This document shows positions 20,007-64,000 of a DNA stretch of 64,000 nt, piece by piece. Numbering within the stretch: the stretch's first letter is position 1; every line of letters begins with the position of its first letter. This stretch comes from an uncultured delta proteobacterium. GTDB lineage: Bacteria; Desulfobacterota; Desulfuromonadia; Desulfuromonadales; JACZKF01. The stretch covers positions 345,362-409,361 of the forward strand of contig CAWKDO010000006.1 in assembly GCA_963848425.1 (NCBI GenBank), given 5' to 3'. The notes under the pieces were generated by a model. The model saw nothing but the letters and a program-made list of their open reading frames with translations, was not told where the DNA came from and did no database searches. The translations under genes and the position numbers were made by a program.

Positions 20007-20310
20007 CAATAGCAGCTCCGGAGTGATCGGCGGGCGCTGGCATCCCTGGTGAACGCTCAATGCCGCCATTCTTGAACACACCTGCGTAGCATAAGGGAAA
20101 AACGGGAAAAAGGCGATATCCATGCGGCTGGCCTGCCGAGGATAGCGCCTGCTGTCCTACGCATCACAAAGAGCCTTGTGTTGCTTAGTTTGCTTGACTA
20201 ATAAACTATATTGGAATAAAGTTTATTAGCTTTTGATGGAAAGTAACTTTCGTTGTTTAGTCTCGAACGCTACGCAACAAAACTGCCGTAACGCTTTTCA
20301 GGAGTGCTCA

Positions 20311-21477
20311 ATGTTCACCGAAGTCTCACCCCGTGGTGGCCGGCTGGTCGTGCAGCAACAAGGACCGGAAGGGTACCGCGCCTTTGTTCCCAACCCGCTG
20401 CCGCCCACGCCGCCACTGCAGATCGACGCCGAGATGAGCCGGCTTATGGAGCGGGCCAACCGCGCCCTCGGCCGTCTGGACGGCTGTACCTGCATCCTCC
20501 CCAATCCCGACCTTTTTCTCTACATGTACGTTCGCAAGGAGGCGGTCCTCAGTTCGCAGATCGAAGGGACGCAAGCCTCCCTGGCCGATCTGCTGGAATA
20601 TGAAGGAGAGATCGAAGGCAAAAGCTCGCAGGACGACATCAACGAGGTCTCCAACTACGTGGCGGCGATGAATTACGGCCTGGAACGGCTAAGGGAATTC
20701 CCCTTGAGTCTGCGCCTGATCAAAGAGATTCATGCCCGCCTGATGTCCGGCATCCGTGGCGGACACAAGAATCCCGGCGAATTCCGCACGACGCAGAATT
20801 GGATCGGCGGCACCCGGCCGGGAAATGCCGTCTTCGTGCCGCCGCCGGCTCATGAAGTGCTCCCCTGCCTGAGCGAGTTGGAGAAGTTCCTCCATGACGA
20901 AACCCTGCCGCCATTGCTCAAGGCCGGGCTTGCTCATGCCCAATTCGAAACGATCCACCCTTTTCTCGACGGCAACGGCCGGATGGGACGGCTCCTGATT
21001 ACCCTGATCCTCTGCCACGATCAGGTTCTTGAAAAGCCTCTCCTTTACCTGAGCCTCTTTTTCAAAAAACACCGCCAGGAGTATTACGAGCGACTCAACG
21101 GCGTCCGCCGGGATGGCGACTGGGAAGGGTGGATCAAATATTACCTGGAGGGAGTCGCCGAAATCTCCAAGCAGGCGACCGACGCCGCCAGGGCGATCAT
21201 CGATTTGCTGGCCGCCGACCGGCAGAAGGTCGCCTCCCTGGGCAGGGCCGCGCCAACGGCTTTGGCGCTTCTCGACGTGCTCTGTCGCCATCCCTACGTC
21301 TCGATTCCATTCGTGGCGCGGCAGCTCGGCATCAGCGCCCCGGCGGCGGGGAAAGCGGTCGGCAATCTAGTGTCGCTCGGGCTTCTCAAAGAGGTAAGCG
21401 GCAAGAAGCGCGACCGGGTTTTTCTCCATGAGGCGTATCTGGCGATTATTAAGGAGGGGACGGAGGTTTGGGGGTGA
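20311..21477 (+). CDS. Fic/DOC family protein with C-terminal winged-HTH
   Basis: Canonical Fic motif HPFLDGNGRMGRLL and a C-terminal wHTH. RBS AGGAG 7 nt upstream of the ATG. The gene lies in an AT-rich islet. Confidence 0.85.
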   Translation: MFTEVSPRGGRLVVQQQGPEGYRAFVPNPLPPTPPLQIDAEMSRLMERANRALGRLDGCTCILPNPDLFLYMYVRKEAVLSSQIEGTQASLADLLEYEGEIEGKSSQDDINEVSNYVAAMNYGLERLREFPLSLRLIKEIHARLMSGIRGGHKNPGEFRTTQNWIGGTRPGNAVFVPPPAHEVLPCLSELEKFLHDETLPPLLKAGLAHAQFETIHPFLDGNGRMGRLLITLILCHDQVLEKPLLYLSLFFKKHRQEYYERLNGVRRDGDWEGWIKYYLEGVAEISKQATDAARAIIDLLAADRQKVASLGRAAPTALALLDVLCRHPYVSIPFVARQLGISAPAAGKAVGNLVSLGLLKEVSGKKRDRVFLHEAYLAIIKEGTEVWG

Positions 21478-21659
21478 GTACTTTAAATATGGAGAGCGGC
21501 GGCTACATACGCTTCCAATAACCACCTGACGCCCGTTGTCTCGCACATCAAGGAAAGCAATTGTACTAAGGTAACATCAACTGGTAGTATGCTGATTAAT
21601 CGAAGGAAATAGTTTAATTTGAATTGACAATTCACTAAAAGGCCAAAACAAACATACCA

Positions 21660-22412
21660 ATGAGTACGAATACTTCAATTGAATGGACAGAACAGACCTG
21701 GAATCCAGCGATCGGTTGCAGCAAGGTGTCGTCGGGATGCGCCCATTGTTACGCCGAGGTTATGGCGCGGCGGTTGAAAGCTATGGGCGTGAAAGGTTAC
21801 GAAAACGGTTTCCAAATCAGACTGTTGCCATATCGACTCAACGAACCACTGAAGCGAAGACGCCCGACGATTTACTTTGTCAATTCCATGAGTGACCTCT
21901 TCCACGAAGCGATTCCAGACGATTATATCCGTCAGGTTTTCGACGTCATCCGCCAAGCACCGCAACATACCTTTCAGATCTTGACCAAGCGGGCCGAGCG
22001 CATGGCCACTTTTTTCGACAGCTACGGCACAGCGCCAAACAACGCATGGCTGGGAGTGACGGTCGAAGACCGTGCTCACGGCGTTCCGCGTCTCGACTGG
22101 GTGCGCCAAGTTCCGGCACGCATCCGTTTTGTCTCCGCAGAGCCTTTACTCGAAGACCTCGGCACACTTGATCTTTCCGGAATTCACTGGGTGATTGTCG
22201 GCGGTGAATCCGGCCCGCAAGCCCGGCCAATGCAGAAGGAATGGGTCATGAACATCAAGGGTCAGTGCGAAACTCAGCACTCGGCTTTCTTCTTTAAACA
22301 ATGGGGTGGGTGGGGGGTTGACGGGAAAAAACGAGCAAAGAGACAGAATGGTCGTTTGTTACAAGGAAGAACGTGGGATCAGATGCCGCTCAGTATGATA
22401 GACAAACTATAA
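21660..22412 (+). CDS. Phage protein Gp37/Gp68 family (DUF5131) three-Cys-motif protein
   Basis: 250 aa with N-terminal WNPAIGCSKVSSGCAHCYAE (C-x6-C-x2-C) and conserved HTFQILTKR and WVIVGGESG segments characteristic of PF07505. GC is about 50%, against about 62% genome background. Confidence 0.8.
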   Translation: MSTNTSIEWTEQTWNPAIGCSKVSSGCAHCYAEVMARRLKAMGVKGYENGFQIRLLPYRLNEPLKRRRPTIYFVNSMSDLFHEAIPDDYIRQVFDVIRQAPQHTFQILTKRAERMATFFDSYGTAPNNAWLGVTVEDRAHGVPRLDWVRQVPARIRFVSAEPLLEDLGTLDLSGIHWVIVGGESGPQARPMQKEWVMNIKGQCETQHSAFFFKQWGGWGVDGKKRAKRQNGRLLQGRTWDQMPLSMIDKL

Positions 22413-22422
22413 AGGAGGGGAT

Positions 22423-23697
22423 ATGGCAGAGACTCATTACCAATGGGGGATTGGAGAAAGACCACCCATTATCAAACAGCACAGCATCGCAAAACATGAA
22501 ATTTTACGTGCATATTTGGTTTCTTATATTCAGACGTTAACTACCTCTCCGAGACAAGATGAATTTCGTCTTACCCTGGTTGATGGGTTCGCAGGTGGTG
22601 GGATTTATCGACACGAGAAAACTGGGGAAGAGATACTTGGGTCACCCCTTATAATGCTTGAAGCTGCAAAGGAAGCAGAATTTATAATCAATCAACAAAG
22701 ACAAAAGAAAATTCATTTTGATATCACTTATTTTTTTATTGAATCAAACAAGCAAGCAGAGGCACACCTTCGCCATGAGCTTACATTGCGAGGTTACGGC
22801 TCAAGTTTGAATGATACCATTTTTTTAATTTGCGACAAATTTCACAATCAATCTGATAAAATCATAGATTTTGTTAAAAAGAAAAGTCCGAGGTCAACAA
22901 AAACAATATTTTTGCTCGACCAATATGGCTACACAGATGTACCAACAGACTTATTAAATACTTTGGTTTTTAGCCTCTCTGGTTCAGAAATAATTCTTAC
23001 CTTCGCGGTAGATTCGTTTTTAAATTTTGCTGGTGATCATCCGATCACAAAAAGAGGGTTGGAAAGAATTGGTTTATCTGATCTGCTTAACGGTAGAAGC
23101 TTTGATGAAATAAAACGTAGCGATAAAAAATGGCGACTTTTTATTCAAAGCTGTTTGTATAAAGAATTAGTTGACGCAAGTGGTGCAAGGTTTTATACGC
23201 CATTTTTTATAAGATCTACAAACGGTCACGGAGATTACTGGTTATTACATTTTTCGCAAAGGGCACGAGCGCGCGATGTTATGACACGCATTCATTGGGA
23301 AAAAAATAATTATTTTATTCACTATGGCGGAGCTGGTTTGAACATGTTTCAGATGCTTGGTTATATTCCTGAAAAGGATAGTCAATACACCGGGCAAATG
23401 GACCTTGGCTTTTGTTTTGATGATCTTGCAAAAACAAGCAGCATCAATGCCCTTTCAGAACAAATCCCTCATCTGATTTATCCAGATCCTGAAGGCATGT
23501 CATTTGGTGAGCTTTTCGCGTCAACATGTAACTCCTCTCCCGCATCAGCTGCTGTGTACCGAGAAGCTTTAGGAGTCTTGCTTCAGCATAAAGAAATCGA
23601 AATATTTGGGCAAGATGGTGCTGAACGACGTTCTGCCAACAGGATTCACGATAATGATCAGATTATCCCGCCAAAACAGCGAACATTCTCTTTTTAA
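22423..23697 (+). CDS. Three-Cys-motif partner protein (TcmP)-like, partner of Gp37/Gp68
   Basis: 424 aa, about 38% GC, strong RBS AGGAGG. N-terminus WGIGERPPIIKQHSIAKHEIL...LVDGFAGGGIY resembles TcmP (a MTase-motif-I-like FxGxG). Found immediately after a DUF5131 gene, as TcmP is defined. Confidence 0.6.
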   Translation: MAETHYQWGIGERPPIIKQHSIAKHEILRAYLVSYIQTLTTSPRQDEFRLTLVDGFAGGGIYRHEKTGEEILGSPLIMLEAAKEAEFIINQQRQKKIHFDITYFFIESNKQAEAHLRHELTLRGYGSSLNDTIFLICDKFHNQSDKIIDFVKKKSPRSTKTIFLLDQYGYTDVPTDLLNTLVFSLSGSEIILTFAVDSFLNFAGDHPITKRGLERIGLSDLLNGRSFDEIKRSDKKWRLFIQSCLYKELVDASGARFYTPFFIRSTNGHGDYWLLHFSQRARARDVMTRIHWEKNNYFIHYGGAGLNMFQMLGYIPEKDSQYTGQMDLGFCFDDLAKTSSINALSEQIPHLIYPDPEGMSFGELFASTCNSSPASAAVYREALGVLLQHKEIEIFGQDGAERRSANRIHDNDQIIPPKQRTFSF

Positions 23698-23766: not shown

Positions 23767-26373
<2,607 letters not shown>

Positions 26374-59146: not shown

Positions 59147-60064
59147 ATGCACGACTTCGAACCCGCTTACCTGCAACTGCACCGCAGCGGCGAACTGGCC
59201 GAACGCGCCCGCCAGGCCCGCGAGCACCTGCGCCATTGCGATCTGTGCGCCCGCGGCTGCCACGTCAACCGCCTTCTCTCCACCCGCGGCGCCGCCTGCC
59301 GCACCGGCGAACGGGCGGTCGTCTGCAGCGCCGGCGCGCACCATGGTGAGGAGCGCCCCCTCTCCGGCCGACGCGGCTCGGGAACGATCTTCTTCTCCTG
59401 GCGCAATCTCGCCTGCGTCTTCTGCCAGAACTGGCAGATCAGCCGGCGCGGCGAAGGGGAGGAAGTGAGCGACGAGGAGTTGGCCGCGATCATTCTGCGC
59501 CTGCAGGCGGACGGCTGTCATAACATCAATTTCGTCAGCCCGAGCCATGTCGTCGCGCCTATTCTGGCGGCTGTGGCGATTGCTGCCGACCAAGGGCTGC
59601 GCCTGCCGCTGGTCTGGAACAGCGGCGGCTACGACAGCCCCGAAGCGCTGGCGCTCCTCGACGGGGTGATCGACCTCTACATGCCGGACATGAAATTCGC
59701 CAACTCGCAGGTCGCCCGCACCTATCTGGGCGTCAGTGACTACGCCGAGGTCAATCAGGCGGCGGTGCGCGAGATGCACCGTCAGGTGGGGGATCTGGTC
59801 CTCGATCGCCAAGGGATTGCCCGGCGCGGTCTGCTGGTGCGCCATCTGGTGCTGCCGGAAAATCTCGCCGGCACCGACCGCATCCTCGCTTTTCTTGCCG
59901 GCGAAATCTCCCCCGCGACCTACGTCAACCTGATGGATCAGTACCACCCGTGCTACCGCGCCGACGAGTACCCGCCCCTCGACCGCCGTCCCACTCCGGC
60001 GGAGCTGGCCGCCGCCCGCGCCCTGGCCAAGGCGGCGGGGCTGACGCGCCTGGATACCGGCTGA
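59147..60064 (+). CDS. PflX-like radical SAM protein (pyruvate formate-lyase activase homolog, COG1313 type)
   Basis: Conserved blocks CRTGERAVV, GSGTIFFS, CVFCQNWQIS, GCHNINFVSPSHV and RHLVLPENLAGT. The first Cys of the canonical CxxxCxxC is replaced in the reading (SWRNLACVFC). Confidence 0.7.
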   Translation: MHDFEPAYLQLHRSGELAERARQAREHLRHCDLCARGCHVNRLLSTRGAACRTGERAVVCSAGAHHGEERPLSGRRGSGTIFFSWRNLACVFCQNWQISRRGEGEEVSDEELAAIILRLQADGCHNINFVSPSHVVAPILAAVAIAADQGLRLPLVWNSGGYDSPEALALLDGVIDLYMPDMKFANSQVARTYLGVSDYAEVNQAAVREMHRQVGDLVLDRQGIARRGLLVRHLVLPENLAGTDRILAFLAGEISPATYVNLMDQYHPCYRADEYPPLDRRPTPAELAAARALAKAAGLTRLDTG

Positions 60065-60070
60065 TCCTGC

Positions 60071-60547
60071 ATGTTCACCCCCCTGCATGTAAAAAGCGAT
60101 TATTCCCTCGGCTACGGCACCGCGGCGGTCGATGAACTGGTCGCCGGAGCGGCGGCGCTCGGCTACCGGACGCTCGCTCTCACGGCGGCATCGGAGCGCA
60201 CCCGATGGCCCTGCGGCCGGAGGCACAGCGCTACGCCTGTCGATCGATCTTTGAGACGGTCGCGGCCGGCCGGCACGAAGCTGTGTCTCGTCGTCATCGT
60301 CGCCGCCATGCGCCGGGTGCCGACCCGGCAGGGACCGATGCAGTTTCTCACCGTCGAAGACGAAACCGGGCTGCTCGAAGCGGCGGTCCTTCCGCCGGCC
60401 TACCGCCGCCTCGGCGAGCGGATTTCCACCCCCGGTCCGTTCCTGATCGAAGGCCGCCTGCGCCGGCAGCAGGACGCCGCGCACCTCGATGTCAGCGACA
60501 TCACCCCCTTCCATGAGCGGGAACAGCCTTACGGGTTAAAGGTTTGA
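60071..60547 (+). pseudogene. dnaE2: Internally deleted remnant of error-prone DNA polymerase III alpha (DnaE2/ImuC)
   Basis: N-terminal 40 aa MFTPLHVKSDYSLGYGTAAVDELVAGAAALGYRTLALT equals the PHP-domain start of DnaE2. The last 75 aa PMQFLTVEDETGLLEAAVLPPAYRRLGERI...IEGRL equal the C-terminal OB-fold of DnaE2. The intervening 900 aa are absent. Confidence 0.6.
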
Positions 60548-60846
60548 CACTGAAGCTTCGCTCAAGGGTTACTGGGTGAGATTCGAAGCGCATAAAATTG
60601 AACCCACAGCCGGTCGCCCCGCATGGGATTGCCTATTCCCTCACCCTGCATGACCGGAACAACACACGGGTCATCGGATTCGATAATGCCCACGGATGCC
60701 CGCCGCCCCGGCGCAAGAGGACGCCGCATCGCTTGGGATCATCGACACCAGCACACTCTGGTCGTCCCGTATGAATACGAATCGGCCGCTCGGTTGCTGG
60801 AAGATTTCTGGCTGGAAGTGGAGCGCATCACGCAAGGAGGCGCATC

Positions 60847-61235
60847 ATGACACGAGACAGCATCAAGATCGGGATCATGTCCCGCGAAGAGTTCAAGCGC
60901 CGGACCTCGCCATTGCCAGAGGCGACTGCCGTCCGGGGAAGGACGAGCCGAAAATCTGGTTTGAATCGCTGCAGTCGTTTGCCCAGGTGCTCAACGATGA
61001 CAACTGATTGTTGCTGCACATTATCGATGAGCAAAAACCGAAATCGATCCGCGAGTTGGAAGAGTTGCCCGGCCGCAAGAAGAGCAACCTGTCGCGGACG
61101 CTGCGCACCCTGGCCGATTATGGCATTGTCGAGCTGATTCGGCAGCCGAGCCGCGAATTGACCCCACGGATGAATGCAACCCGCTTCCGTCTCGAACTCG
61201 GTCTGCCGCAGGTATGCGCGCATTGCGCGGGGTAG
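60847..61235 (+). CDS. Hypothetical winged-HTH DNA-binding protein, apparently frameshifted
   Basis: MTRDSIKIGIMSREEFKRRT... continues in other frames as ...KDEPKIWFESLQSFAQVLNDDN and LLHIIDEQKPKSIRELEELPGRKKSNLSRTLRTLADYGIVELIRQ. Possibly an antitoxin-type regulator. Confidence 0.3.
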
Positions 61236-61350
61236 CGGAGGATTGGGGGAACGTTATTGTTAATGGACAAATAAACAACGTCCCTCGAATTCCCTTTTCC
61301 TGTGGCCATACCCTTGGTGTTATAAACGTCCCGCTCAGCCCATTCCACGA

Positions 61351-61695
61351 TTACAGCCGCGCCTGCTCTAGAATTTCGGCCAAATGCTCATCACGGAGGT
61401 TCCTGTAGAAGGAATCCCGGGTCACGTTTAGGTGCAGAACCAATCCCTTTATGCTGGGGATCGTGTCGGTTGTTTTGCACCAATCGAAATACTTATTAAT
61501 CGCGTTCCGCAGTCTGGCAGGGGTGAACTTCTTGCGGCCCTTCTTGCGTAAGGAAGTGGCCCTAAGGATTTCGTTGCTAACCCTGCCTATCGGGGTGGTA
61601 ACGGCTTGATTTTGTTCTTTCAGCCTCTGCCGACGAGCGTTATACACCTGTATGTTAGCGGTCACAGCAGCGATCTTCTTCGTGGTATTTGCCAT
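61351..61695 (-). CDS. Phage terminase small subunit-like protein
   Basis: Motif FTPARLRNAINKYFDWCKTTDTIPSIKGLVLHLNVTRDSFY resembles the conserved YF..C...PT..GLAL.LG.SR.T.Y block of Terminase_2 small subunits. Lies at the boundary of a low-GC segment. Confidence 0.4.
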   Translation of the reverse strand: MANTTKKIAAVTANIQVYNARRQRLKEQNQAVTTPIGRVSNEILRATSLRKKGRKKFTPARLRNAINKYFDWCKTTDTIPSIKGLVLHLNVTRDSFYRNLRDEHLAEILEQARL

Positions 61696-62113
61696 AACCT
61701 ACCTCCGTTGTCTGAAGGAAGTCTGGAAGAAATCCCTTTTATGTAAAGCAAATACGTCTTTTGGCGACTTAAAAAATCTTGTGACAACAAAAAATTAAAA
61801 GTACAATGATTGGAATATCACCCCTCAAAATGTCGCCTTTTTTAAGTTCTCGACCGTTCATACCTACCAAAATTGAAGAACCACGCCCACAAAGGTAAAT
61901 ATTACAAATGGAATTTAGCTTAGATGGCCGAACAGATATTCCAGGCAGACGTTTATGAGATCCGCCAAGCGGTAGTGTAAGGTGATAACTATCTCTGTAC
62001 ACTCTGTATGTACAGTCATGGCAAATAATAAGTAATTTAAAAGTTATTTGCTTGTCGGTAGGTGTAGATTGTATTAATTATGCCAATTTGCAGCATTGTT
62101 TGCCGGAGGTAAT

Positions 62114-64000
62114 GTGGAGTACAGAAGAGAGATTGACGGATTGCGGGCTATTGCCGTTTTGCCAGTAATACTATTTCATGCCGGCTTTAGTGCGTGTAGT
62201 GGTGGGTTTGTTGGCGTTGATATTTTCTTCGTTATAAGTGGTTATCTAATAACAACAATCATTCTCTCTGATATGGAGAAAGGTAAGTTTTCAATAATTA
62301 CCTTTTACGAAAGAAGGGCACGTCGTATACTCCCATCTTTATTCTTTATTATTTTTTGCTGCTTTCTGTTCGCATGGTTTTGGCTTACACCATTTCACAT
62401 GAAAAAGTTTTCTCAAAGCATCGTTGCTGTTTCTGCATTTTCGTCAAATATCCTTTTCTGGTTGCGAACTGGTTATTTTGATGGTGAGTCTGAGTTGATT
62501 CCATTGTTGCATACATGGAGTTTGGCGGTTGAAGAGCAATTTTATCTGCTTTTTCCTGTTTTTCTTTATGTATTGTGGTCCTTTCGAAGAAAACTGATCT
62601 TAAGTTCTCTTGTTTTTATTGCGATAGCTAGCCTTATTTTTGCCCAATGGGGTGCCTACAATCAACCTACAGCGAATTTTTATCTATTGCCTGCACGAGT
62701 TTGGGAGTTAGCCATAGGGGCTATCATTTCTTTTTATTTTTTCTACAAGAAAGAACATTGCAATTTCATAAATACTCATAAAGGGATTAGTGAAGTATTT
62801 GGTTTTATAGGAATTATGATGATAGTTTTTTCTATTATTTTTTTAAATGAAGCAACTCCCTTTCCAAGTCTTTATGCCCTTATACCAACAATCGGGACAG
62901 GTTTGATAATCTCATTTTCTAATCAAAAAACCATTATTGGTCGTTTTCTCGGTACTAAGATTCTAGTGGGTATTGGGATGATTAGTTATAGTGTCTATTT
63001 ATGGCATCAGCCAATTTTTGCTTTTGCTAGACATACAAGTTTACATGAACCAAATATGTATCGCCTATCATGTCTATCAGCACTTTCCATAGCCTTAGGT
63101 TATTTAACATGGAGATACGTGGAAAATCCTTTCCGTAGTAAAGATTTTATCAATAGGAGAAAAATATTTTATTTTACTTTAACTGCCACTTTATTGTTTT
63201 TCTCTGTCGGTATGTTTGGTCACAAAACTTTTGGTTTTCAAATGAGAGAAGCAGCTTCATCATTGCCAAGAGATTATTTTCTTAAAGCTATTAATTCTCC
63301 ATCAAACTTTGGCACGAATGGCGATAGATGTGTTTCAGATGAAAAAGCAAATATCTGTCATTTTTATGATGCAAAATCAGAACAAAATTTTTTGCTTGTC
63401 GGAGATTCCCATAGTGCTGATTACTCTTCAGCGTTTAATTCTTTTGTAAGAAGCAACAAAGCCAATGGATGGCAAATGTCGCTTGCTTCATGTAGCTTTA
63501 CCGAGACTCGAGAAAAGATATATGGAGGAGAATGCTATAAAGCAATAGGTTTATTAAAAGAAAGTATAGATATATACAATTTTCAAAAGGTTTTTCTTGT
63601 AGTTACTTTTATTGATCGTACAATGCAGTCGAATCAATTAGACAGGCAGAGAGATATTGATTCATTTGTTAGCTTAATAGACTATATAAGAAAAAATGTA
63701 CAAGAAGTTATAATCTTTGTTCCAAGATACACCCTGGCTGCTGGAAATCCTCAGCAATACGCAGCCACTGGCAATATCGACAGCATAAAAGTCATAGAAA
63801 AAGTTGATAAAAATGAAGATGATTGGAGTAGTGCCTTGCTCAATATAGCAACGTTTGAAAATGTTATTTTATTTAATGAAAGGAAGGAGATGTTATTATT
63901 AGGTTGTGGAAATGTAGAGTGCTTTGATGGTCATACAAAAGAAAAATATCCTTTTTATATCGACTCAAACCATCTAACTGAATATGGCGCTAACTTATTG
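62114..64000 (+). CDS. OafA/YrhL-type O-acyltransferase (acyltransferase_3 membrane domain plus SGNH domain), 3' partial
   Basis: GTG start with GGAGG RBS. Sequence DGLRAIAVLPVILFHAG, HTWSLAVEEQFYLLFP, about 10 TM helices, then an SGNH-like domain (LLVGDSHSADY). About 33% GC. The ORF runs off the window end. Confidence 0.8.
   Translation, partial: MEYRREIDGLRAIAVLPVILFHAGFSACSGGFVGVDIFFVISGYLITTIILSDMEKGKFSIITFYERRARRILPSLFFIIFCCFLFAWFWLTPFHMKKFSQSIVAVSAFSSNILFWLRTGYFDGESELIPLLHTWSLAVEEQFYLLFPVFLYVLWSFRRKLILSSLVFIAIASLIFAQWGAYNQPTANFYLLPARVWELAIGAIISFYFFYKKEHCNFINTHKGISEVFGFIGIMMIVFSIIFLNEATPFPSLYALIPTIGTGLIISFSNQKTIIGRFLGTKILVGIGMISYSVYLWHQPIFAFARHTSLHEPNMYRLSCLSALSIALGYLTWRYVENPFRSKDFINRRKIFYFTLTATLLFFSVGMFGHKTFGFQMREAASSLPRDYFLKAINSPSNFGTNGDRCVSDEKANICHFYDAKSEQNFLLVGDSHSADYSSAFNSFVRSNKANGWQMSLASCSFTETREKIYGGECYKAIGLLKESIDIYNFQKVFLVVTFIDRTMQSNQLDRQRDIDSFVSLIDYIRKNVQEVIIFVPRYTLAAGNPQQYAATGNIDSIKVIEKVDKNEDDWSSALLNIATFENVILFNERKEMLLLGCGNVECFDGHTKEKYPFYIDSNHLTEYGANLL

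What the first reader, a model, noticed from the sequence alone, without database searches (positions are those of the whole stretch)
61236..64000. Low-GC terminal segment with terminase-small-subunit-like gene and OafA-type O-acyltransferase: likely prophage or serotype-conversion remnant
After 61.2 kb, GC falls to about 33-48%. A 114-aa protein carries the conserved Terminase_2 small-subunit block (KYFDWCKTTDTIPSIKGLVLHLNVTRDSFY). A long membrane acyltransferase_3-SGNH fusion (OafA-like) follows and runs off the window. OafA-type O-antigen acetylases are classic cargo of temperate phages. The boundary coincides with a degraded dnaE2 remnant and a frameshifted HTH gene, consistent with an integration scar.
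Basis: partly seen in the sequence, partly recalled or inferred. Interest (0 to 1): 0.55.

Follow-up and report, generated by a model that had tools for sequence, protein, structure and literature searches.

The report
Phage scrap plus IS-framed sugar acetyltransferase gene
The low-GC end of the window is a 3.3-kb patch of foreign DNA made of a dead fragment of a phage packaging gene and an intact surface-sugar O-acetyltransferase gene framed by two leftover insertion-sequence ends; it is an ordinary genomic scar, not a prophage.

Summary
GC falls from 60.5% to 34%. The 114-aa ORF matches a small-terminase family (Pfam PF16677, not Terminase_2). An AT3-SGNH acyltransferase gene runs off the window.

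- **terS is a pseudogene.** Intact relatives are 197-198 aa. Here a 1-nt deletion makes the stop, and homology ends at 61296 (nt 395 of 597). No terL or portal gene follows.
- **The acyltransferase is intact.** An identical public contig completes it at 643 aa, with every OafA/OafB catalytic motif present.
- **It is framed by insertion-sequence ends.** Two solo right-end repeats of an ISAs19-like IS481-family element flank it. Each is 25/26 identical to the consensus, and their tips point toward the gene. No transposase gene is present.
- **Host chromosome resumes quickly.** About 520 nt past the gene the sequence is 79% identical to host-type DNA of related bacteria.

The island is therefore about 3.3 kb. 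It sits beside a decayed DnaE gene and a decayed TumE/HTH toxin-antitoxin pair. It is a remnant patchwork assembled with insertion-sequence involvement, not a prophage. How the inward-facing ends arose is unresolved. Everything beyond window-equivalent position 64802 is unseen. Novelty and interest are low.

The parts
60071..60547 (+). Remnant of a DNA polymerase III alpha (DnaE-type) gene. About 40 N-terminal PHP residues are fused to the OB-fold region, implying an internal deletion of roughly 900 codons.
   Evidence: Pfam PHP matches residues 5-42 and the OB-fold model matches residues 74-146. NCBIfam DnaE models match only positions 1-38 and about 950-1080.
60598..60850 (+). TumE-like toxin pseudogene (frameshifted).
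   Evidence: The fragment scores 21.6 bits against PF20126. After conceptual repair of the frameshift it scores 33.4 bits and covers profile positions 19-81 of 81.
60847..61235 (+). HVO_A0114/MarR-like winged-helix regulator pseudogene, the likely antitoxin partner. It has a frameshift near 60905 and an in-frame TGA at 61005-61007.
   Evidence: The C-terminal piece alone scores 41.1 bits. The repaired 123-aa product scores 67.7 bits over profile positions 3-76 and spans the stop codon.
61236..61295 (.). 60-nt junction between the last host-side gene and the terS remnant. It contains motif 'M' (61266-61284, GACAAATAAACAACGTCCC).
   Evidence: M is identical over 20 nt to L005 517-536, a contig that carries a 53%-identical acyltransferase homologue. 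A 16/19 inverted copy lies at window-equivalent 64481-64499. Its meaning is unknown.
61296..61695 (-). Phage small-terminase (terS) pseudogene. It keeps the first 395 of about 597 nt. A 1-nt deletion near 61353 creates the stop of the 114-aa ORF.
   Evidence: PF16677 and phrog_606 hits. Intact relatives are 197-198 aa. DNA alignment to the L002 and L003 terS genes shows the single-base gap and the end of homology at 61296.
61696..61961 (.). AT-rich spacer upstream of terS (37% GC).
   Evidence: Composition. No DNA similarity to the spacers upstream of terS in L002-L004.
61962..62001 (+). Left solo end of an ISAs19-like IS481-family element. It is of the right-end (IRR) type. Its tip is at 62001 and points toward the acyltransferase gene.
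   Evidence: It forms a 36-nt, 89%-complementary inverted repeat with L001 2760-2795. It is 25/26 identical to the IRR of a complete IS in L093. Homology to the IS runs over 61962-62003.
62114..64000 (+). AT3-SGNH (OafA/OafB-type) O-acyltransferase gene, intact. It runs off the window. The full gene is 643 codons and ends at window-equivalent 64045. The matching right IS end lies outside the window at equivalent 64192-64219 (L001 2768-2795).
   Evidence: Pfam and PHROG hits. P0009 on L001 is 100% identical and 643 aa. Catalytic motifs are invariant in a 12-sequence alignment and match those defined in PMC7448272.

Best explanation
Window 61236-64000, continuing to about 64566 on the identical contig L001, is a roughly 3.3-kb patchwork of horizontally acquired DNA. 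It is not a prophage.

**Piece 1: a dead phage gene.** The first two thirds of a small-terminase gene remain. The gene is inactivated by a 1-nt deletion and cut off at nt 395 of about 597. None of the packaging or structural module follows it.

**Piece 2: an intact acyltransferase gene.** It is 643 codons long and extremely AT-rich. The enzyme most likely takes an acetyl group from cytoplasmic acetyl-CoA through its ten-helix AT3 domain. Its periplasmic SGNH domain then transfers the group onto a cell-surface glycan such as O-antigen or exopolysaccharide. That would change the surface seen by phages and other cells.

**How piece 2 arrived.** The gene is framed by two solo right-end repeats of an ISAs19-like IS481-family insertion sequence. 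Their tips face the gene and no transposase is present. The simplest history has two IS copies once flanking the gene, as in a composite transposon with inverted arms or two nearby insertions. The IS bodies were later deleted.

**What is shown and what is inferred.** Shown: the pseudogene lesions, the intact enzyme motifs, the identity of the repeats as IS ends, and the return to host DNA. Inferred: the enzyme's substrate, its expression, and the order of events.
For: **terS.** PF16677 scores 36.5 bits against a cut-off of 29.4, and phrog_606 matches. Relatives are 197-198 aa. The frameshift and the truncation point come from DNA alignment. In viral contig L004 the intact relative sits next to a large terminase and an SU10-type portal.

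**Acyltransferase.**
- Both domains score above their cut-offs.
- The full 643-aa product was recovered.
- R11-X10-H22, GGF-x-GVD (30-36), FFVISG (38-43), RRARR (67-71), S111, GDSH (430-433) and D617-x-x-H620 are all invariant in the alignment.
- These are the residues shown to be essential in OafA (PMC7448272).

**IS ends.**
- The 36-nt inverted repeat is 89% complementary.
- Eight metagenome contigs share the sequence up to ...CTCTGTACA and diverge immediately after it.
- L093 holds a complete 1223-nt copy with a 7-bp target duplication. Its transposase scores 263.8 bits against NF033577 IS481 (cut-off 224).
- The same end occurs in annotated ISAs19.
- There are only two copies and no transposase homology in the 64.8 kb examined.

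**Composition.** The strata coincide with these borders.

**Right flank.** It is 79% identical to host-type contigs that carry nitroreductase and nicotinate phosphoribosyltransferase genes.

**Physical continuity.** Contigs L095 and L001 confirm it.
Against: - Only 802 nt beyond the window could be read. More phage DNA could lie further downstream, after the host-like gene.
- The inward-facing geometry of two right-type ends, with both IS bodies gone, needs several events. No target-site duplication supports any particular route: the inner flanks are CTCTGTA and TTCAGGG.
- Low GC is common for this gene family. The L005 homologue is 42% GC in a 53% GC contig. Composition alone therefore overstates how recent the transfer was.
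- No close relative genome was available to show an empty site.
- Expression and substrate are untested.
Confidence: 0.72

Rival explanations
1. The segment is the edge of a real, perhaps intact, serotype-converting prophage whose other genes lie beyond the window.
For: terS is phage-derived. AT3-SGNH genes are frequent prophage cargo. Sequence beyond window-equivalent 64802 was not available.
Against: terS points away from the unseen side and is truncated and frameshifted, so its packaging module is gone. Host-type DNA resumes at about 64567. The window holds no tRNA gene. No integrase was seen in the island or in the adjacent ORFs.
Confidence: 0.1
2. The acyltransferase is a long-resident host surface-polysaccharide gene whose low GC is typical of its class. 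The terS scrap and the IS ends are unrelated debris that happen to lie nearby.
For: Homologues also have lower GC than their surroundings (L005/L006). A 47%-identical homologue is chromosomal in Geomonas sp. RF6. The nearest relatives are not demonstrably viral.
Against: GC3 is 27% against 75-84% in host genes, an extreme gap. The low-GC block is delimited almost to the base by the two IS tips. In related contigs L100/L103/L104 the small membrane-protein gene is preceded by a 132-aa gene, not by an acyltransferase.
Confidence: 0.12
3. A circular DNA carrying the acyltransferase gene was captured between two abutted IS ends (a reactive end-to-end junction of two IS copies), as happens in replicon fusion by IS dimers. 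This would directly produce ends whose tips face the captured DNA.
For: It is the one known route that yields inward-facing tips in a single step. This rests on established knowledge of copy-out-paste-in elements such as IS30 (abstract of PMC9333248, listed). The low-GC block fits exactly between the tips.
Against: It predicts a direct 7-bp target duplication at the two inner flanks, and none is present. Both arms are right-end type, whereas a standard junction pairs a left end with a right end. The IS bodies are still missing.
Confidence: 0.05
4. The low-GC end is an assembly or binning chimera.
For: The GC contrast is extreme. The source looks like a metagenome-type assembly whose contig may end near here. 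The two public contigs leave a 9-nt gap at 61416-61424.
Against: L095 crosses the join from host DNA into terS. L001 crosses terS, the acyltransferase gene and the host-like right flank. Both are 100% identical to the window. The terS alignment to relatives is continuous across the 9-nt gap.
Confidence: 0.01

Closest known systems
OafA / OafB of Salmonella enterica (AT3-SGNH O-antigen acetyltransferases; PMC7448272)
   Same: Same two-domain architecture (PF01757 + PF19040). Every residue shown to be essential in OafA is conserved: R-X10-H, GGF-x-GVD, FFxISG, RXXR, S112, and the SGNH Ser/Asp/His triad.
   Different: No detectable sequence match to any solved structure by phmmer. The host is a Desulfuromonadales-like bacterium. 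The substrate is unknown.
O-antigen acetylase genes carried as extra cargo by temperate phages (Pseudomonas phages PAJU2, FBPa47, YA3; Salmonella BTP1 gtrC)
   Same: Same gene class. In FBPa47 the gene is inserted singly on the opposite strand to its neighbours, as it is here relative to terS.
   Different: Identity is only 35-43%, and mostly over the AT3 part. Here the surrounding phage is reduced to one gene fragment, and the gene is framed by IS ends rather than by phage genes.
Small terminase family PF16677 (GP3_package), as in SU10-like viral contig L004
   Same: The N-terminal DNA-binding region is conserved. Identity is 46-82% to full-length relatives, one of which precedes a large terminase and an SU10-type portal.
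   Different: The window copy lacks the C-terminal third and is frameshifted. No large terminase is adjacent.
ISAs19 (IS481 family) and the 1223-nt relative in L093
   Same: Both arms are 25/26 identical to the element's 26-nt right end. Similarity continues about 15-20 nt inward, into the non-coding stretch after the transposase stop.
   Different: There is no transposase, no left end and no target duplication. The tips face each other across 2190 nt instead of facing outward.
Composite transposons with inverted IS arms (Tn10/Tn5 type)
   Same: A cargo gene sits between two inverted copies of the same IS end, with the inside ends facing the cargo.
   Different: Only about 30-45 nt of each IS is left, so the unit cannot move. 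Whether full copies ever existed here is inferred.

Membership tests
Phage small terminase (Pfam PF16677 GP3_package) | Profile match above the curated cut-off | tested here: met
   36.5 bits against 29.4 for the 114-aa ORF, and 39.4 bits for the frame-repaired 134 aa.
Phage small terminase (Pfam PF16677 GP3_package) | Full-length protein including the C-terminal part | tested here: not met
   Relatives are 197-198 aa. The window copy stops at 114 aa through a 1-nt deletion, and homology ends at codon 135 or so.
Phage small terminase (Pfam PF16677 GP3_package) | Adjacent large terminase and portal genes | tested here: not met
   Host-side pseudogenes follow directly. The feature is met in relative L004.
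   Not among the hits at E <= 1 for either the 114-aa or the repaired protein.
OafA/OafB-type AT3-SGNH O-acetyltransferase | AT3 domain followed by a fused SGNH domain | tested here: met
   PF01757 scores 114.7 bits (residues 6-333) and PF19040 scores 59.1 bits (residues 406-627).
OafA/OafB-type AT3-SGNH O-acetyltransferase | AT3 motifs R/K-X10-H, GG-F/Y-xGV-D, FFxISG, RXXR and the Ser of the TMH3-4 loop | tested here: met
   R11/H22, G30-D36, F38-G43, R67-R71 and S111 are invariant among 12 homologues. The motifs are as defined in PMC7448272.
OafA/OafB-type AT3-SGNH O-acetyltransferase | SGNH catalytic triad (block I GDS, block V DxxH) | tested here: met
   G430-D431-S432-H433 and D617/H620 are invariant.
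OafA/OafB-type AT3-SGNH O-acetyltransferase | O-acetylation of a surface glycan | not testable with these tools
   Needs genetics and glycan chemistry.
IS481-family insertion sequence (ISAs19-like) | Terminal inverted repeat of the family | tested here: met
   Both arms are 25/26 identical to the right end of a complete copy. The same end occurs in annotated ISAs19.
IS481-family insertion sequence (ISAs19-like) | DDE transposase gene between the ends | tested here: not met
   tblastn and blastx with the L093 transposase find nothing in the 64.8 kb.
IS481-family insertion sequence (ISAs19-like) | Outward-facing ends flanked by a direct target duplication | tested here: not met
   The tips face inward. 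The inner flanks CTCTGTA and TTCAGGG differ.
Prophage | Integrase, att repeats, structural and lysis genes | tested here: not met
   None in the island or in the 802 nt that follow. The window holds no tRNA gene. Sequence beyond 64802 is unseen.

The most novel reading that the evidence does not exclude
The two inward-facing solo right ends are not random debris. They would be the signature of a gene-capture route in which an IS481-family end-to-end junction took up a free circular DNA carrying the acyltransferase gene. Alternatively, together with the outer 'M' inverted pair at the island's borders, they could mark a small nested mobile cassette type that moves AT3-SGNH genes between genomes. 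The same M motif lies beside the homologue in L005.
Probability: 0.07. Interest if true: 0.45.

Novelty: new member of a known kind. Interest (0 to 1): 0.17.

Why it matters
This finding mainly serves as a correction. A low-GC patch containing a terminase-like ORF and an OafA-like gene looks like a prophage edge. Here it is a 3.3-kb scar, and only the acyltransferase is likely to be functional.

The case shows that surface-glycan acetyltransferase genes can persist as the sole survivors of mobile DNA. It also shows that insertion sequences, and not only phages, can be involved in placing them.

If the enzyme is active, it would modify the cell surface of a Desulfuromonadales-like bacterium and could affect phage adsorption. 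Nothing here opens a new question of broad interest.

Tried and rejected
**Attempts to read further downstream.**
- Exact look-ups of the 114-aa product, the radical-SAM protein and the FHA protein found nothing.
- The 409-kb source contig appears in the index but was not returned.
- The source genome is not among the species-representative genomes.
- The closest representatives (Desulfuromonadaceae/Desulfuromonadales assemblies, 72-75% protein identity for the radical-SAM gene) share no gene order, so no empty-site comparison was possible.

**Readings of the 36-nt inverted repeat that were rejected.**
- It was first read as the ends of a transposase-less cassette containing the gene. This failed once the metagenome copies showed that the conserved side lies outside and the tips point inward.
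- An invertible segment was considered. No recombinase gene is nearby and the repeat is an IS end.
- A degraded transposase next to either arm was sought and not found.
- A second repeat that would make each arm a miniature element was sought and not found.

**Other negative searches.**
- The repeat and the M motif are absent from IMG/VR. M is also absent from the plasmid collection.
- Rfam finds nothing in L001 or in the IS-bearing contigs.
- Promoter and terminator scans do not exceed shuffled controls.
- No solved structure matches either protein by sequence.
- A larger decayed palindrome around the gene was tested. Only the IS arms and the 13-nt M core stand out.
Full report
**Observation.**

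The composition change is real and sharp. Window 1-61235 averages 60.5% GC. The next 60 nt are 45%, 61296-61695 is 51%, 61696-61960 is 37%, and 62002 onward is 34%. Third-position GC of the long ORF is 27%, against 75% and 84% in the neighbouring RtcA and radical-SAM genes.

The 114-aa ORF (61351-61695, minus strand) carries the quoted block. It scores 36.5 bits on Pfam PF16677 GP3_package (cut-off 29.4) and matches phrog_606 'terminase small subunit'. Terminase_2 was not among the hits at E <= 1.

The long plus-strand ORF, starting at GTG 62114, matches Acyl_transf_3 (114.7 bits), the AT3-fused SGNH domain (59.1 bits) and phrog_6705 'O-antigen acetylase' (E = 1.6e-154).

**The terminase gene is a pseudogene.**

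Eight database relatives were found. The full-length ones are 197-198 aa and 46-82% identical. The window protein aligns only to their first 114 residues.

DNA alignment to the relatives in L002 and L003 shows a single missing base near 61353, which creates the TAA stop. Homology then continues in another frame (EWAERDVYNTKGMATGK) and ends at 61296, which is nt 395 of 597.

The family is a genuine packaging family. In JGI/IMG-VR contig L004 the 198-aa relative is followed by a 500-aa large terminase (Terminase_6N/6C), an SU10-type portal and an SU10 adaptor. In the window nothing of that module follows.

**The acyltransferase is complete and looks functional.**

A Logan contig from run ERR10755943 (L001, 3378 nt) is 100% identical to window 61425-64000 and extends 802 nt further. 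The gene is 643 codons and ends at window-equivalent 64045.

In an alignment with 11 homologues the following positions are invariant:
- R11 and H22 (R-X10-H)
- G30-G31-(F32)-G34-V35-D36
- F38-F39-V40-(I41)-S42-G43
- R67-R68-A69-R70-R71
- S111
- G430-D431-S432-H433
- D617 and H620

These correspond to the residues whose mutation abolishes OafA activity, and to the SGNH triad (PMC7448272).

The inferred mechanism is the one proposed for OafA/OafB. The AT3 domain passes the acetyl group across the membrane, and the periplasmic SGNH domain transfers it to a surface glycan. The substrate cannot be deduced.

The nearest relatives (57%, 53%, and 47% in Geomonas sp. RF6) are from unknown or chromosomal contexts. 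Phage and IMG/VR copies reach 35-46%.

**The gene is framed by insertion-sequence ends.**

A 36-nt inverted repeat, 89% complementary, lies at 61974-62009 and at L001 2760-2795 (window-equivalent 64184-64219).

A metagenome scan with its core found eight contigs. In all of them conservation runs up to ...GGTGATAACTATCTCTGTACA and stops there.

L093 holds a complete 1223-nt element:
- left end TGTTCTGAGATGGTTATAACCTGACA
- a 349-aa transposase
- right end ...TGTCAGGTGATAACTATCTCTGTACA
- a 7-bp target duplication, GCCAATA

The transposase scores 263.8 bits on NF033577 'IS481 family transposase' (cut-off 224). The element is 72-74% identical to annotated ISAs19 copies, which end in the same repeat.

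Both window arms are 25/26 identical to the right end and only 21/26 to the left end. Their tips (62001 and 64192) point toward the acyltransferase gene, so the gene lies outside both ends. No transposase homology and no further copy of the repeat exist in the 64.8 kb examined. Solo right ends of the same group occur elsewhere, for example L091 between mrcB and an IS91-like element.

The 33.9% GC block fits exactly between the tips.

The most economical history has two inverted IS copies once flanking the gene, with their bodies later lost. Capture of a circular DNA by an end-to-end IS junction would give this geometry in one step. That route predicts a direct target duplication, which is absent. 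The history remains open.

**Borders of the island.**

*Left side.* The island abuts three decayed genes:
- a DnaE-type polymerase reduced to its PHP start fused to its OB-fold region
- a frameshifted TumE-like toxin gene
- an HVO_A0114/MarR-like regulator with a frameshift and an in-frame stop

Conceptual repair raises the profile scores of the last two from 21.6 to 33.4 bits and from 41.1 to 67.7 bits.

*Right side.* GC climbs to 51% after the right IS end. From 64567 the sequence is 79% identical to Logan contigs L100-L104. In those contigs the same small membrane-protein gene sits between a 132-aa gene and nitroreductase and nicotinate phosphoribosyltransferase genes, in DNA of 57-62% GC.

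The foreign patch therefore spans about 3.3 kb. L095 (window 59993-61415) and L001 confirm its links to both flanks in a separately produced assembly. The terS alignment is continuous across the 9-nt gap between those two contigs.

**Verdict.**

The remnant is a mosaic in which insertion-sequence activity, not only a phage, framed the one gene that survives intact.

The remaining uncertainty has two parts. The first is whatever lies beyond 64802. The second is the route that produced two inward-facing right ends.

All components belong to well-known classes, so interest is low.

Noticed in passing
window 61266-61284; L001 3057-3075 (window-equivalent 64481-64499); L005 517-536: A 19-nt motif (GACAAATAAACAACGTCCC) sits in the 60-nt junction at the island's left border. 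A 16/19 inverted copy lies near the right border. The left copy is 20/20 identical to a site in groundwater contig L005, which carries a 53%-identical acyltransferase homologue. There too the motif follows an HTH gene at a GC drop. It could be an outer pair of element ends or an operator.
   Followed up: partly
window 62002-62009 and L001 2760-2767: The inverted repeat continues 8 nt past the IS tips (CTCTGTAT versus reverse-complement CCCTGAAT, 6/8). This is not expected for two independent insertions.
   Followed up: partly
window 20233-23697: A second low-GC islet (34-46% GC over 21.5-23.7 kb). It holds a Fic/DOC protein gene, a DUF5131 gene (355 bits) and a 424-aa gene with a GMT-like wHTH domain.
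   Followed up: partly
window 23767-25161 (minus strand): The clpB-like gene next to that islet appears split into two ORFs. The AAA_2/ClpB_D2-small part is separate from the upstream part, which suggests a frameshift.
   Followed up: no
window 60071-60547: The polymerase remnant keeps an intact-looking start and an OB-fold end joined in frame, as if by one clean internal deletion. It matches DnaE models better than the error-prone polymerase model.
   Followed up: partly
L003 8239-8742: A 77%-identical terS relative (167 aa, N-terminally shorter) also sits alone. Its neighbours are a multihaem cytochrome gene, a PAS sensor kinase gene, a deaminase gene and a split seryl-tRNA synthetase gene, with no large terminase. 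This is a second orphan copy of the same terS lineage.
   Followed up: no
L002 3034-9610: Upstream of another terS relative, on the opposite strand, lie defence-like genes: NERD, Mrr-type nuclease, and an HxsD plus two radical-SAM genes of a His-Xaa-Ser-type system. The spacer before terS may be a cargo site in this phage group.
   Followed up: no
L088 1128-2436: One metagenomic copy of the IS481-family element has a 1.3-kb insertion near the 3' end of its transposase gene.
   Followed up: no
window 61416-61424: The two Logan contigs of run ERR10755943 stop 9 nt apart inside the terS remnant. This hints at a variant or a coverage break there.
   Followed up: no
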